A stretch of 64,000 nt of DNA from Schmidtea polychroa. Taxonomy: Eukaryota. Of this stretch, positions 49,766-63,592 are shown one piece after another. The position numbers and the translations under genes were made by a program. The notes beneath the pieces are model-generated. The model did no database searches. It was not told the origin of the DNA and worked only from the letters and a program-made list of their open reading frames with translations. Numbering within the stretch: position 1 is the stretch's first letter; each line of letters begins with the position of its first letter. The stretch lies in the NCBI GenBank assembly GCA_044892525.1, contig CM097885.1, positions 9,550,001-9,614,000 of the forward strand, given 5' to 3'.

Positions 49766-51364
49766 ATGACGAATGTCGTAAAAACCGACGAGTATAAAGA
49801 AAAGTTCCGTGGGGAACCGTTCAATGGAAATGCAAACAAGTTAGCAACGTTCATAACAAATTTTGAAGTTTATATCACCGTGTGTGGATGGACACCCGAA
49901 GCAATTAGCAAAAGTATGCCGTTGTTTTTGTGCGATAGCGCATTAGAAGTATATTTAGAAGCTAAAGAGAGAGATACGAAATTAGAGAAGTGGGAAGATA
50001 TCAAAACATTCTTGAAGAAAACCTTCGGAGCCAGTAAGCCAATCAACCAGGCGTTGGGCGAACTAGCAAATAGGAAACAAAGAGCGAACGAATCGATAAC
50101 ATTATATGCCAGTGAATTACGAAGATTAGCGAAGAAAGCAATGAATGGGAAATTACCCGAGGAAAATCTGATCGGCTATTTCATAGAGGGATTACGCCGA
50201 GAAGAGGTAAGAGCCTCAGTAGGTTGTCAAATGTGCAAAACATTAGAGGAAGCCATAGATTGGGCTACCAGATGCGAGATCCACCTCCCAGCACAAATGA
50301 ATATTATGCAAGAGGATGGGAGGATAGCGACAGCAATAGCGAAAGCGGATAACGGAGATAACAACAACCAGGAACCGAAAATGAATCAATTTATACCAGG
50401 AGCGCATCAAATTTTCAAACCACCACAAGGACGATCAAATGGGAATAATGGTAATCGTAACAACCTAAATAATGAGAACAATTTCAATAATCGACGAAAT
50501 ATGAACGATAACAAGCAGTGCCGAACATGTGGTAAACCAGGACACTGGGACAGAGACTGTTATAGAAATGCCAATTGTAATCGTTGCGGACGGCGTGGAC
50601 ATACGGAAAATAGATGCCAATTGAGAGGTTGTTTTAACTGTGGTCAGCCAGGTCACATCTCCAGAGATTGCCGAGAAAGGGGCCAACCACAACGACCACC
50701 ACAGCGAAATACTAATTACATGTCGAATCCGCAACGACAAAGTAACCCGAGTGAAGGAAAACAAATGAACGTTATGCAGGAAATCTCACAAATGAAACAG
50801 ATGATGCAACAAATGATGAGACCAAGACAAGAACCAGCACCACAACAAACCCAGAATATACGTATGATGAGGAGTACCGAAAATCTCAACAGTTATGAAG
50901 TACATCAACATGTACAAGAATGGCAAAGACTACAGGCCGAGGAAGAGAGGATAAAACAAGAACGCAACCAACAACGACAAGAACAACCATTGCGAATAAA
51001 TATGATGAAGTTAGTAAAAGACATGAAAAGCCAGTACTGTTACAATTACGGGAAAAACCCAAGGGTAGTACCCATGACCGAACCAGAAAAGGTAAAAGAA
51101 ACGACAACGGAAAGGAAAACAGAGAATTCAACCACGATCTTAAAAGGGAACCAGAGAATCCAGAAAATATTCTGGAAAAAGATAAAAGATAAAATCGAAA
51201 AAGAACATAATAAAGCGAAAACTGAGACAGAAGACGAAAATAACAAGAGCAAGGAACAAACCAGTCAACTAAACCACCAAATGCTACAAGAATTAGAATC
51301 AGAAGAAACAATGATATTCGAAAGAAAGAAACTAAAGAGAGTACCAAGGATGAGAAATTTGTAA
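49766..51364 (+). CDS. gag: Gag (capsid plus three CCHC zinc knuckles), start of the polyprotein
   Basis: FNGNAN..FITNFE, RKQRANESITLYASELRRLA; CRTCGKPGHWDRDC, CNRCGRRGHTENRC, CFNCGQPGHISRDC. The stop is followed in the same frame by the next ORF. Confidence 0.9.
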   Translation: MTNVVKTDEYKEKFRGEPFNGNANKLATFITNFEVYITVCGWTPEAISKSMPLFLCDSALEVYLEAKERDTKLEKWEDIKTFLKKTFGASKPINQALGELANRKQRANESITLYASELRRLAKKAMNGKLPEENLIGYFIEGLRREEVRASVGCQMCKTLEEAIDWATRCEIHLPAQMNIMQEDGRIATAIAKADNGDNNNQEPKMNQFIPGAHQIFKPPQGRSNGNNGNRNNLNNENNFNNRRNMNDNKQCRTCGKPGHWDRDCYRNANCNRCGRRGHTENRCQLRGCFNCGQPGHISRDCRERGQPQRPPQRNTNYMSNPQRQSNPSEGKQMNVMQEISQMKQMMQQMMRPRQEPAPQQTQNIRMMRSTENLNSYEVHQHVQEWQRLQAEEERIKQERNQQRQEQPLRINMMKLVKDMKSQYCYNYGKNPRVVPMTEPEKVKETTTERKTENSTTILKGNQRIQKIFWKKIKDKIEKEHNKAKTETEDENNKSKEQTSQLNHQMLQELESEETMIFERKKLKRVPRMRNL

Positions 51365-51370
51365 ATCAAT

Positions 51371-62300: not shown

Positions 62301-63592
62301 TAGCAAGAAACAGAGTGCTAACAGCATATCGCAGATTATTGAACGATATAAATGTCGGGGACGACATTTTAAACGACAGCGGGGGAGATAAACACGATGA
62401 CAATGACGGAAAAGGCCGAAAGGAGGATAAAGAGAAAAGAGAACCGGAAGAGGATACACCGGAAAACAAGGATTCGGATGCGAAAAGAGAGGGAAACAGC
62501 CCGGGAACCAAGACCAAAGAGGAGGAAAAACCGAATAATGGAAAACAGAGGGTATGCCTACCTTTCACTAACAAAGAAATAGAGACAAATATGATATTAA
62601 TGATAATTATGCTTACCATGATAGAGTTAGTAACAGCTCATGGAGGGACGAGAACGATAAAAGAAACCAAAGAAGCGGAGAATCAAGATGGCAAAGAGGA
62701 CGAACTAAAACAAGAAAAGAAAAAGCAAGCACAAGAGCAGCAGTGGGATTTAAAGGAAGAATGGGACTTAAAGGAAAGGTGCATACTAGGAAGATGCATG
62801 TCTAGAGCGTGTCAGAAACTAGTACTGATAAATGAGGACACAGAACCAATAACAGAAGTAAGAATACAAGAAGCATACCGAAATCGAGACGGGAAGAGAA
62901 TAACGAACGTTAAAGGAAAAGAGGTACACCTAGGAAAAGGTGGTGAAGTAGTAATAACGCAGCTCCAACCAAGAAAAGAGCACAAAGTCTGTATTTCAAG
63001 ATTAGGACCAGGTGAGAGATGCCATCAATATGTGACGCAGCAGCAGCCCCCGAAGGAATACACGGTTTGTATCTGGAGGAACGAATCAAAAAGAGAATGC
63101 CGACGATACCCGGGGAAAAGAGAAAAGAAAAGAAAAAACCACGACGAAAAGGACGAAGGAGGAAAGCACAAGAAAACCGGCGAGGAAGCTCAGGACAACT
63201 ATGTTTCGGAGGAAGAGATGGAAAAAATACAAAAGATGGCAAAGGAGGGTATGAACGAGGAAATAGCAAGAATACGAGAGATGATGAAAGGGAATGGCAA
63301 AAGAGGGAACGAGAAAAGTACAGAAGCAATATCAACATTAACAAACAAGGAAAAACCAGAGAGTATAAGCGTGAAGCAGATGATGTGGATCAGTGGGATA
63401 ATAATAACAGGGGCATTCCTAATCATAACGGGGGGAACAATAAAAATAATTAAAGATAAACGACATCGCGGAGAACTAGAGATGACCCGAATCAGAAATT
63501 TCCAACATCGAGTGAAACGACCAAGTGATATCCAACAAGAACAGTGGGTGGAGGCCTGGAACGCTCAGCGCCCTCCAAACTCACGTATATAG
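59228..63592 (+). CDS. Polyprotein part 4: integrase core and GPY/F, two ankyrin-repeat modules, C-terminal type I membrane protein
   Basis: CLTC, SMDVVGP, LTDQGTNF, NGMTERFN, GKGPYEI. Ankyrin motifs GDTPLH, GYTPLMIAA, KNALHHA, RTPLQQA, GETAMMYAA, GNSTLDWA. Hydrophobic MILMIIMLTMIELVTA and MMWISGIIITGAFLIITGG. The true reading frame begins at about 59372. Confidence 0.9.
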   Translation: MVTDNGWREEINVCARKPTEGITNAVSRWEIGRTYVIEKDVSKNETEITEDVTEWVKNCLTCATRKNTGSKWKAPLTPMPVPIEPMTMISMDVVGPLPESDRGNVYILVITDFLTKFPEAFAMPDQKAKTIAKILVEEICCRYGTPKQILTDQGTNFMSEIMSEVTNYFKIAKLRTSPYHPQTNGMTERFNGTLIQMLSNYVDRHQRDWDEYINLCLMAYRMSIHASTKMSPFKLMYGRECNMPMDLEYQPPISQYMEIDDYVTKFKERMQEIWETAGLNIKFYQESYKDLHDRKKNVKQHTFQTGDWVMIETPELIPGTTKKLQRNGKGPYEILFVGETNVRVKLVNNPFTRPIYVNVARCKSIPKTATSQPEGRTLTTRSQTYRINMMQQLAEPIIGRLGIQPSEAEKIVKEVKIKLPGWAKDRLDFEILGGLLTMIENYANRERTHPLLRVVKSQWPILFTITDHYGDTPLHKLMKVGNNEQILETIEAFHDCKRSTEQENNQGYTPLMIAANRGKTKDIITALLDTGSKITTQDHEQKNALHHAIEGKSTEAFTSLMELLSYEDNREVGNMYGGLLTATKEKLTTITGILITWRNPIKNDYVINVNEAFTRGENTLMREAMKGHHLFEIPNQLLERGIKFTNHKDEQLAKKRIDTFEKSILQFTNQVRNKYWETVSVLYMMDTMNNIRENYLDIIQILTAEERINNPNGKKTKIRYGKSREPKSTVTNNVIETKSMSIDQEALIRKAKEVFFEEMLELSDEIILSKIIKAVHTYARDQTTGLDIGKIKTFLPRAFTMVTKDSRTPLQQAILTAKENRAITIMRILRDMGEETNTKNEQGETAMMYAAITKIHPKTLHILHQSGSRLDEKSNEGNSTLDWATIQPNLEMIRFICKNATKEEVENICKNTSQFQWNTVRKNLEAMKLLVTWRIPQSNKYAININEFYENGENAMVKNTLTKGGTPKIILIVLNREDLKFTQNQNEQQRIGKHRRIQLRELVKEWNRKRHAATGRKEFEFEAKLARNRVLTAYRRLLNDINVGDDILNDSGGDKHDDNDGKGRKEDKEKREPEEDTPENKDSDAKREGNSPGTKTKEEEKPNNGKQRVCLPFTNKEIETNMILMIIMLTMIELVTAHGGTRTIKETKEAENQDGKEDELKQEKKKQAQEQQWDLKEEWDLKERCILGRCMSRACQKLVLINEDTEPITEVRIQEAYRNRDGKRITNVKGKEVHLGKGGEVVITQLQPRKEHKVCISRLGPGERCHQYVTQQQPPKEYTVCIWRNESKRECRRYPGKREKKRKNHDEKDEGGKHKKTGEEAQDNYVSEEEMEKIQKMAKEGMNEEIARIREMMKGNGKRGNEKSTEAISTLTNKEKPESISVKQMMWISGIIITGAFLIITGGTIKIIKDKRHRGELEMTRIRNFQHRVKRPSDIQQEQWVEAWNAQRPPNSRI

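What the first reader, a model, noticed from the sequence alone, without database searches (positions are those of the whole stretch)
49766..63592. Four ORFs are one ~4,600-codon polyprotein punctuated by a recurring INMM-like motif
Seen: Gag and ORF2 share a frame across a single TAA (51362-51364). The breaks near 55375 (inside Env) and 59370 (inside the integrase zinc finger, where the usual YYW motif is missing) look like copy-specific indels. A motif recurs at domain borders: QMNIMQ (~50294), QMNVMQ (~50762), NIRMMR (~50855), RINMMK (~50993), *INMMK (51365), HIHAMR (~52907), TIAAMS (just before PR), KMNAII (just after PR), RICLIV (RH/IN border), RINMMQ (just after IN). Inference: these are cleavage sites for the element's own aspartic protease, releasing each accessory protein.
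Basis: partly seen in the sequence, partly recalled or inferred. Interest (0 to 1): 0.72.

Follow-up and report, generated by a model that had tools for sequence, protein, structure and literature searches.

The report
Giant retroelement polyprotein with cleavage motifs
This is a damaged copy of a giant retrovirus-like element of a kind already described in planarians; its one huge protein carries a short recurring motif that probably marks where the element's own protease cuts, while its two membrane proteins are probably freed by a host enzyme instead.

Summary
Observation confirmed. Four ORFs (4,605 codons) read Gag, ubiquitin-like domains, a weak Bcl-2-like domain, gB-type Env, PR, RT, RH, IN and ankyrins. 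All ten motifs lie where stated.

The breaks belong to this copy. The stop is absent from 98.6-100% of contig depth in 4 of 4 runs, other copies differ in length at both frame breaks (less cleanly shown at 55373), and relatives run through all three places in one ORF. Programmed recoding is rejected.

The architecture is that of the published planarian Burro/GYPSM1 elements, so the single polyprotein is known.

The motif reading is likely but unproven. In a 44-46% identical relative, the five homologous Gag-region sites are the five best matches in the protein, and the pattern fits Ty1 protease sites. Support is weaker around PR and at RH/IN, and is not significant in distant relatives.

'Each accessory protein' is overstated. 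No motif precedes Env or a second, C-terminal membrane protein; both follow signal-peptide-like helices shared with relatives. Best model: a membrane-threaded precursor cut by host signal peptidase and by its own protease into about 13 products. I did not find this map in print.

The parts
44334..46588 (+). Putative 5' LTR (inferred; no second LTR inside the window)
   Evidence: Starts with TG at 44334 where GC rises to about 40%; ends just before the PBS-like site; no partner among the repeat families shown
46594..46611 (+). Primer-binding-site-like sequence
   Evidence: Read, located; likeness to a tRNA-Pro PBS is recalled, not tested
46889..47407 (+). Upstream accessory ORF with a RING finger
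   Evidence: Pfam zf-C3HC4_3, E 2e-11
49766..51364 (+). Polyprotein piece 1: Gag capsid domain, three CCHC knuckles, linker peptides; frame open from 49463
   Evidence: Pfam Retrotrans_gag E 2e-10, zf-CCHC E 2e-10; three knuckles read in the translation
50294..50311 (+). Motif 1 (QMNIMQ), end of capsid
   Evidence: homologous site is among the top five matches in P0005
50762..50779 (+). Motif 2 (QMNVMQ), after the zinc knuckles
50855..50872 (+). Motif 3 (NIRMMR)
50993..51010 (+). Motif 4 (RINMMK)
51362..51364 (+). Break 1: in-frame stop private to this copy
   Evidence: Differs from 98.6-100% of contig depth in 4 of 4 runs; P0005 is one ORF across this place
51365..51379 (+). Motif 5 (INMMK directly after the stop)
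   Evidence: core kept in P0005 (3 of 4 identical) while the right flank is 1 of 10 identical
51365..52915 (+). 515-residue segment with two ubiquitin-fold-like domains (about 51761-51982 and 52280-52546)
   Evidence: Strand/helix pattern of a low-confidence model, mean pLDDT 38.7; Foldseek hits to ubiquitin, SUMO and ISG15 at E about 1e-4 over about 85-90 residues
52907..52924 (+). Motif 6 (HIHAMR), near the start of a roughly 250-residue segment that P0005 largely lacks
   Evidence: conservation could not be tested
53234..53338 (+). Third ubiquitin-like domain (weak)
   Evidence: Pfam ubiquitin E 0.004, below the curated cut-off; similar stretch in P0003, E 1e-4
54029..54460 (+). Bcl-2-like helical domain (weak)
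   Evidence: Pfam Bcl-2 E 0.025; 32 of 46 listed Foldseek rows are Bcl-2 family but none is significant, best E 0.55; VIA lists none
54560..54616 (+). Signal-peptide-like helix before Env
   Evidence: Position read; below my hydrophobicity thresholds in this copy, above them in 8 of 9 Env-bearing relatives
54617..56354 (+). gB/chuvirus-type Env ectodomain and transmembrane helix (56298-56354)
   Evidence: PF24664 E 1e-25 and 3e-44 on the two halves; TM
55373..55375 (+). Break 2: frame break inside Env
   Evidence: Length difference in contigs of 4 of 4 runs, at 18-78% of a collapsed local depth; 9 of 9 relatives carry both Env halves in one ORF
56913..56930 (+). Motif 7 (TIAAMS) before the protease
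   Evidence: weaker match, leave-one-out rank 54 of 4585
56922..57302 (+). Aspartic protease with intact DTG, 127 residues between motifs 7 and 8
   Evidence: Pfam RVP E 9e-10
57294..57311 (+). Motif 8 (KMNAII) after the protease
   Evidence: rank 21 of 4585
57303..59051 (+). Conserved spacer domain (the published dUTPase-like position), RT and RNase H; 583 residues
   Evidence: Pfam RVT_1 and RT_RNaseH; spacer 22-29% identical to four relatives; dUTPase likeness not confirmed
59043..59060 (+). Motif 9 (RICLIV) at the RH/IN border
   Evidence: weakest by leave-one-out (229 of 4585), but P0015 has its best match at the same border
59052..60391 (+). Integrase, interrupted by break 3 at 59371 (this copy lacks sequence that other copies carry)
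   Evidence: Pfam rve and split Integrase_H2C2; loose ends at 59371 in 3 of 4 runs among the rows shown
60383..60400 (+). Motif 10 (RINMMQ) after integrase
   Evidence: rank 1 of 4585; P0015 has its second-best match after IN
60392..62578 (+). Ankyrin-repeat region, two modules
   Evidence: Pfam Ank_2 E 7e-17 and Ank_4
62579..63592 (+). Second signal-like helix, 7-Cys ectodomain, transmembrane helix (63371-63427) and short tail: predicted second membrane protein
   Evidence: signal-like helix in 7 of 7 and terminal TM in 6 of 7 relatives that extend beyond IN; no family match for the ectodomain

Best explanation
The region is a damaged genomic copy of a Burro-type giant Ty3/gypsy element whose intact copies encode one polyprotein of at least 4,600 residues. 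Shown: domain order; the breaks are private to this copy; the motifs are conserved in the closest relative. Inferred step 1: the precursor is threaded into the ER during translation, and host signal peptidase cuts after two signal-like helices. This gives three membrane-bound pieces: Gag-cargo-Bcl-2-like anchor; Env-tail-PR-RT-IN-ankyrin anchor; and a second membrane protein. Inferred step 2: the element's aspartic protease then cuts the cytosolic parts at about ten [I/M]-x-x-[M/I] sites, between the second and third core residue by analogy with Ty1. This frees capsid (179 aa from the first ATG), nucleocapsid (156), peptides of 31, 46 and 123 aa, a two-ubiquitin-fold protein (515), a ubiquitin/Bcl-2-like anchored protein (567), PR (127), RT-RH (583), IN and an ankyrin protein (749). 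That is about 13 products in all. This copy itself cannot make more than the Gag part without recoding.
For: Stop absent from 199,872 of 200,193 (X1), 12,623 of 12,743 (X3), 3,250 of 3,296 (X5) and 178 of 178 (X7) depth; length differences at both frame breaks. P0005 is one ORF across the stop. 9 of 155 screened proteins carry Env, all 9 with both halves and RT in one ORF, 8 also IN. Published Burro ORF1 is 4,873 aa with the same order. A matrix trained on the window's ten sites scores the five homologous sites of P0005 as its top five (11.0-17.1, next 6.7), and P0015's two best at RH/IN and after IN. Four linker cores are 12 of 16 identical against 98 of 279 for the linker. P2 and P2' are I or M in 10 of 10 sites; P3 is polar in 9 of 9 and P3' in 8 of 10. 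This fits the Ty1 pattern of Val/Ile at P2/P2' and hydrophilic P3/P3' (PMC6952103 passages). A looser pattern hits 17 of 37 border zones of distant relatives against 9.2 expected (7 of 2000 shuffles). All ten sites fall on cytosolic segments of the inferred topology. Signal-like helices precede Env in 8 of 9 relatives and follow IN in 7 of 7.
Against: No cleavage was observed, and only one relative (P0005, a fragment) covers the Gag-side sites. The flanks of four of its five cores are also fairly conserved (3-6 of 10 identical per side), so part of the match is plain descent. The window-trained matrix is not enriched in border zones of the Env-bearing relatives (before PR 177 of 300, RH/IN 26 of 300 shuffles). 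The looser pattern was tuned after seeing the sequences and fails after IN (1 of 7). Sites 7 and 9 rank only 54 and 229 of 4585, and one strong match (56247) lies inside the Env ectodomain. The pre-Env helix of this copy misses my hydrophobicity thresholds, and no signal-peptide predictor was available. A second hydrophobic stretch after the Env TM (56412) must not cross the membrane for the topology to work. One ORF gives Gag and Pol 1:1, an unsolved stoichiometry problem.
Confidence: 0.72

Rival explanations
1. One polyprotein, but only the usual Gag/Pol borders are cut. The extra motifs in the Gag-side linker and before cargo are binding or assembly motifs, or remnants of internal duplication, so the cargo stays fused.
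For: Flanks are partly conserved too; exact INMM three times is within post-hoc chance; short hydrophobic strands next to ubiquitin/SUMO-like folds could be interaction motifs (inference).
Against: The same core sits at capsid end, NC end, both PR ends, RH/IN and IN end, where cuts are expected. The DNA of the three INMM differs at silent positions. Motif 5 is a conserved island against its right flank.
Confidence: 0.15
2. The parts are expressed mainly from spliced or subgenomic RNAs, so the full-length precursor is rare and the signal-like helices act as ordinary N-terminal signals.
For: It would solve the Gag:Pol ratio; splice-acceptor-like tracts lie upstream near 45260 and 49107; methionines near both helices could serve as starts.
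Against: The frame stays open through all parts in 9 relatives and in published Burro elements, which fits translation as one chain. It does not explain the motifs.
Confidence: 0.1
3. The stop and the two frame breaks are programmed recoding that sets the ratio of Gag, Env and Pol.
For: The stop lies where a gag readthrough stop could lie, right before a motif. At 55373 only 18-31% of local depth shows the difference in three of four runs.
Against: The stop is absent from 98.6-100% of depth in 4 runs of 3 studies; the frame breaks fall inside folded domains; this copy lacks part of the integrase zinc-binding profile; relatives have no breaks.
Confidence: 0.03

Closest known systems
Burro / GYPSM1 giant gypsy-like LTR retrotransposons of planarians (PMC6431247, section 7 read whole; Jurka 2007 and Grohme 2018 seen only as cited there)
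   Same: One ORF of 4,873-5,140 aa; Gag with three knuckles; ubiquitin/SUMO-like, BCL2-like, in-frame Env between Gag and Pol; extra domain between PR and RT; ankyrins; high copy number; upstream accessory ORF and tandem repeats.
   Different: No MATH or BIR domain found in these four ORFs by Pfam; 4,605 codons from the first ATG; sequence identity to named Burro families could not be tested. That section gives no cleavage map, signal peptides or second membrane protein.
GAG-ENV-POL errantiviruses with HSV/gB-type Env (PMC13524379, passages and supplementary file 1 rows)
   Same: Order Gag-Env-Pol in flatworms, nematodes and bryozoans; gB-type Env flanked by a signal peptide or TM; six Schmidtea entries spanning 14.5-18.0 kb.
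   Different: The words 'polyprotein' and 'ankyrin' do not occur in its main text; it discusses furin sites, not element-protease sites (passages seen).
Ty1 (and Ty3/foamy) aspartic protease sites (PMC6952103, PMC3185560 passages)
   Same: Val/Ile-type hydrophobic P2 and P2', hydrophilic P3 and P3', often Asn at P1, placed at domain borders.
   Different: Here P2' is mostly Met and P1' is hydrophobic; ten sites instead of three; several release non-core cargo. Ty1 is copia, not gypsy; likeness to Ty3 site sequences is recalled, not checked.
Flavivirus/HCV-type polyprotein processing (PMC5402940, search listing only; otherwise established knowledge)
   Same: An internal signal sequence ends one protein and inserts the next; host signal peptidase and a self-encoded protease share the work.
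   Different: Unrelated virus class; an analogy of mechanism only, inferred here.

Membership tests
Ty3/gypsy (Metaviridae) LTR retrotransposon | Gag, then PR-RT-RH-IN order | tested here: met
   Pfam
Ty3/gypsy (Metaviridae) LTR retrotransposon | Two LTRs and a primer binding site | tested here: inconclusive
   Putative 5' LTR and PBS-like site; the element runs off the window, no 3' LTR, no genome held
Burro/GYPSM1 | Single ORF of about 4,900-5,100 aa | tested here: met
   4,605 codons or more with three private breaks; start not settled
Burro/GYPSM1 | Env in frame between Gag and Pol | tested here: met
   PF24664 between Gag and PR; same in relatives
Burro/GYPSM1 | Ubiquitin/SUMO-like domain before a BCL2-like domain before Env | tested here: inconclusive
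   Ubiquitin fold supported; Bcl-2 weak in the right place (E 0.025; Foldseek best E 0.55; not listed by VIA)
Burro/GYPSM1 | dUTPase-like domain between PR and RT | tested here: inconclusive
   A conserved domain of about 90 residues is there, but Pfam and PDB searches give no dUTPase hit
Burro/GYPSM1 | Ankyrin repeats | tested here: met
   Pfam Ank_2 E 7e-17
Burro/GYPSM1 | MATH and BIR domains (variable between families) | tested here: inconclusive
   None at E 0.1 in the 7 ORFs scanned; DNA beyond 64000 unseen; the D. tigrina element also lacks MATH in ORF1
Burro/GYPSM1 | Total length above 30 kb and sequence identity to a named family | not testable with these tools
   Window ends about 400 nt after the ORF; no reference sequence available
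LTR-element aspartic protease sites | Hydrophobic P2/P2', hydrophilic P3/P3' | tested here: met
   10 of 10 for P2/P2'; 9 of 9 P3; 8 of 10 P3'; the sites were picked by eye for this look
LTR-element aspartic protease sites | Conserved at homologous domain borders | tested here: inconclusive
   Met in P0005 (5 of 5 covered sites) and at two borders of P0015; not significant in distant relatives
LTR-element aspartic protease sites | Actually cleaved by the element's protease | not testable with these tools
   Needs a peptide assay or N-terminomics

The most novel reading that the evidence does not exclude
Gag-Env-Pol gypsy elements across several animal phyla are built like flavivirus precursors: one multi-pass ER polyprotein cut by signal peptidase into membrane-tethered Gag-cargo, Env-Pol and a second, so far undescribed glycoprotein. 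Gag reaches the membrane through the Env signal anchor, Pol is packaged as the tail of Env, and Env clustering switches on the protease. The protease then releases host-modulating cargo (ubiquitin-like, Bcl-2-like, ankyrin), each module gained together with its own site, as motif 6 suggests.
Probability: 0.4. Interest if true: 0.65.

Novelty: new member of a known kind. Interest (0 to 1): 0.4.

Why it matters
Burro elements are the largest LTR retrotransposons described, are active in planarian tissue when PIWI silencing fails (PMC8532177 passages), and are suspected of manipulating host apoptosis and ubiquitin pathways. How a single chain with Env in the middle can yield capsid, enzymes and a fusion protein has not been explained in the papers I saw. 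A map of ten protease sites and two signal-peptidase sites gives exact product sizes and N-termini that proteomics can test at once. It also points to a second membrane protein shared by distant relatives. The element class and the polyprotein are known, so the gain is a testable processing model, not a new kind of element.

Tried and rejected
No whole genome was held, so full copies could not be aligned. Pattern scans of viral and metagenome contigs found no relative. A search with the post-integrase region returned only host ankyrin proteins, so motif 10 and the ankyrin part have no close relative to compare. Unguided Gibbs sampling on 65 RH/IN and 42 pre-PR zones of mixed gypsy relatives did not recover the motif; it found an integrase helix or noise. 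The window-trained matrix was enriched before PR in 34 non-Env relatives (0 of 300 shuffles) but not at RH/IN (44 of 300), and the best cores were heterogeneous. ESM Atlas gave no usable hit for the Bcl-2-like region or the C-terminal ectodomain. PDB sequence searches gave nothing for the Bcl-2-like region or the PR-RT spacer. Both AlphaFold models are low in confidence (38.7 and 49.4) and cannot place the motifs in linkers; VIA matches were generic helical bundles, best Z 7.4. No RNA holder was listed. The 15 joints shown of 46 have no GT..AG ends, but contigs cannot show splicing. Only 40 of 1,760 letter differences were shown, so conservation of motif codons among copies could not be read. 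Possible extra sites in the ankyrin region (near 61271 and 61442) were seen and left untested. Grohme et al. 2018 is not held; its supplements may already note cleavage sites or membrane segments. Ten literature searches were run; those aimed at a Burro cleavage map or a post-integrase membrane protein listed none, though only the top rows were seen for the larger ones.
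Full report
Observation. The + strand carries four long frames: 49463-51364, 51365-55468, 55314-59372 and 59198-63592. The non-overlapping pieces from the first ATG total 4,605 codons. Pfam gives Gag and zinc knuckles, a Monjiviricetes-type fusion glycoprotein split over ORF2 (profile 4-208) and ORF3 (244-579), protease, RT, RNase H, an integrase zinc-binding domain split over ORF3 (1-33) and ORF4 (39-58), the integrase core and ankyrin repeats. The region is about 39% GC in a window whose first 44 kb are mostly 22-37% GC.

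The breaks. No genome was held, so I laid contigs of 4 of the 15 listed runs (3 studies, one organism label) on 50200-60600. Two runs come from one study, and the best holder may be the window's source. At 51362 the contigs differ from the window in 199,872 of 200,193 (X1), 12,623 of 12,743 (X3), 3,250 of 3,296 (X5) and 178 of 178 (X7) depth units, so the stop is private. At 55373-55375 a length difference appears in 5, 5, 1 and 1 contigs, at about 18%, 78%, 20% and 31% of local depth. Local depth collapses there (12,855 against a bin mean of 189,030 in X1), so most contigs do not cross the site and this break is less cleanly shown. At 59371, loose ends in 10, 4 and 3 contigs of X1, X3 and X7 show that other copies carry sequence that this copy lacks; X5 is not among the rows shown. 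Independently, P0005 (1,497 aa, 44-46% identical) is one ORF across the stop. Of 155 proteins screened, 9 carry Env, all 9 with both halves and RT in one ORF, and 8 with IN as well. Programmed recoding is therefore rejected.

What it is. Section 7 of PMC6431247 (read whole) describes the planarian Burro/GYPSM1 elements: an ORF1 of 4,873 aa (5,140 in another species) with Gag, ubiquitin/SUMO-like, BCL2-like, in-frame Env, PR, dUTPase-like, RT, RH, IN and ankyrins. This window has that order. Ubiquitin folds are supported by Foldseek on a low-confidence model (E about 1e-4) and by a weak Pfam hit. The Bcl-2-like domain is weak: Pfam E 0.025, and 32 of 46 listed Foldseek rows are Bcl-2 family but none is significant. 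The dUTPase likeness was not confirmed. PMC13524379 (passages, plus rows of supplementary file 1) reports Gag-Env-Pol elements with gB-type Env in flatworms, nematodes and bryozoans and lists six from Schmidtea. I did not establish the host species or the named family. The single polyprotein is known.

The motif against chance. Three exact INMM are not decisive: 99 of 1000 local shuffles give some 4-mer as extreme. Narrow patterns are enriched (6 vs 1.0; 13 vs 5.3) but are post hoc, and a generic pattern is not (78 vs 74). The stronger test is outside the window. A matrix trained on the ten sites ranks the five homologous Gag-region sites of P0005 first to fifth in that protein (11.0-17.1; next 6.7), and gives P0015 its two best scores at the RH/IN border and after IN. 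The four linker cores are 12 of 16 identical to P0005 against 98 of 279 for the rest of the linker; the flanks are partly conserved too, and only motif 5 is a clear island.

Results against the motif. The matrix is not enriched in border zones of the Env-bearing relatives (177 and 26 of 300 shuffles reach the observed value). Leave-one-out ranks are 1-10 for six sites but 16, 21, 54 and 229 of 4,585 for motifs 6, 8, 7 and 9, and one strong match lies inside the Env ectodomain, though it lacks the hydrophobic P2. Unguided motif search failed. A looser pattern, tuned after I had seen the sequences, hits 17 of 37 border zones against 9.2 expected (7 of 2000 shuffles) and fails after IN. Passages of PMC6952103 give the Ty1 pattern: mainly Val or Ile at P2 and P2', hydrophilic P3 and P3'. 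The ten sites have Ile or Met at both positions and polar P3 in 9 of 9 and P3' in 8 of 10. A lineage-specific version of an ordinary LTR-element protease site is the best reading; cleavage is inferred, not shown.

No motif precedes Env. Instead, a signal-peptide-like helix ends at 54616, directly after the Bcl-2-like domain. It misses my hydrophobicity thresholds in this copy but passes in 8 of 9 relatives, each followed by small residues and the conserved Env start. After the ankyrins come a second signal-like helix (62579), a 7-cysteine ectodomain, a transmembrane helix (63371-63427) and a short tail. Of 7 relatives that extend beyond IN, 7 have the second helix and 6 the final TM; the ectodomains are not alike in sequence. 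The chain therefore crosses the membrane at least four times, and the luminal cuts need host signal peptidase (inference from established topology rules). There is also no motif between the third ubiquitin-like and the Bcl-2-like domain, nor before RT, so not every accessory domain is released separately.

Mechanism. Shown: domain order, private breaks, conservation of five sites in one relative, shared hydrophobic helices. Inferred: signal peptidase makes three membrane-bound pieces during translation, and the element's protease then cuts ten cytosolic sites, giving about 13 products with sizes of 179, 156, 31, 46, 123, 515, 567, 127, 583 and 749 residues among them. Motif 6 lies near the start of a segment that P0005 largely lacks, which suggests a module gained with its own site. 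An open problem is the 1:1 ratio of Gag and Pol. A review passage notes that a protease made in frame with Gag has lower specific activity (PMC3185560), and a Ty3 fusion mutant limited by capsid appears as a title in a reference list only.

Novelty and score. The element class and polyprotein are known. My searches listed no cleavage map or second membrane protein for these elements, but Grohme et al. 2018 and its supplements could not be read. Verdict: real, largely explained, with a useful and testable processing model. Interest 0.40.

Noticed in passing
P0001, P0002, P0003, P0015: These single-ORF Gag-Env-Pol relatives carry several protease-like D[TS]G motifs: three in P0001, P0003 and P0015 (one after integrase), two in P0002. 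Multi-protease polyproteins; the window's element has one, plus a chance match in an ankyrin repeat.
   Followed up: no
window 45231-46019: A 262-codon ORF without a Pfam match inside the putative 5' LTR, with a splice-acceptor-like tract just before its first ATG.
   Followed up: partly
window 46889-47407 and 47966-48399: A RING-finger ORF after the PBS-like site, and a 72-74 nt tandem array in the long leader.
   Followed up: partly
window 49108-49765: A short ORF in another frame with an S/Q/N-rich start like the N-terminus of P0005, behind a splice-acceptor-like tract at 49107; the true polyprotein start may lie upstream of 49766.
   Followed up: no
window 63745-64000: A further ORF starts about 150 nt after the polyprotein stop and runs off the window; no Pfam match.
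   Followed up: partly
window 5803-14828: A perfect 2,432-nt inverted repeat pair flanks a DNA polymerase B fragment (9691-10908, Pfam E 2e-13), perhaps a Polinton/Maverick-like remnant or an assembly fold-back.
   Followed up: no
window 25996-31737: A large nested palindromic array of roughly 195-nt and 18-nt units with AAT/TTA runs.
   Followed up: no
window 56412-56456: A second hydrophobic stretch after the Env TM, with a central Phe-Pro-Phe-like core conserved in relatives; it must stay on one side of the membrane for Pol to be cytosolic.
   Followed up: partly
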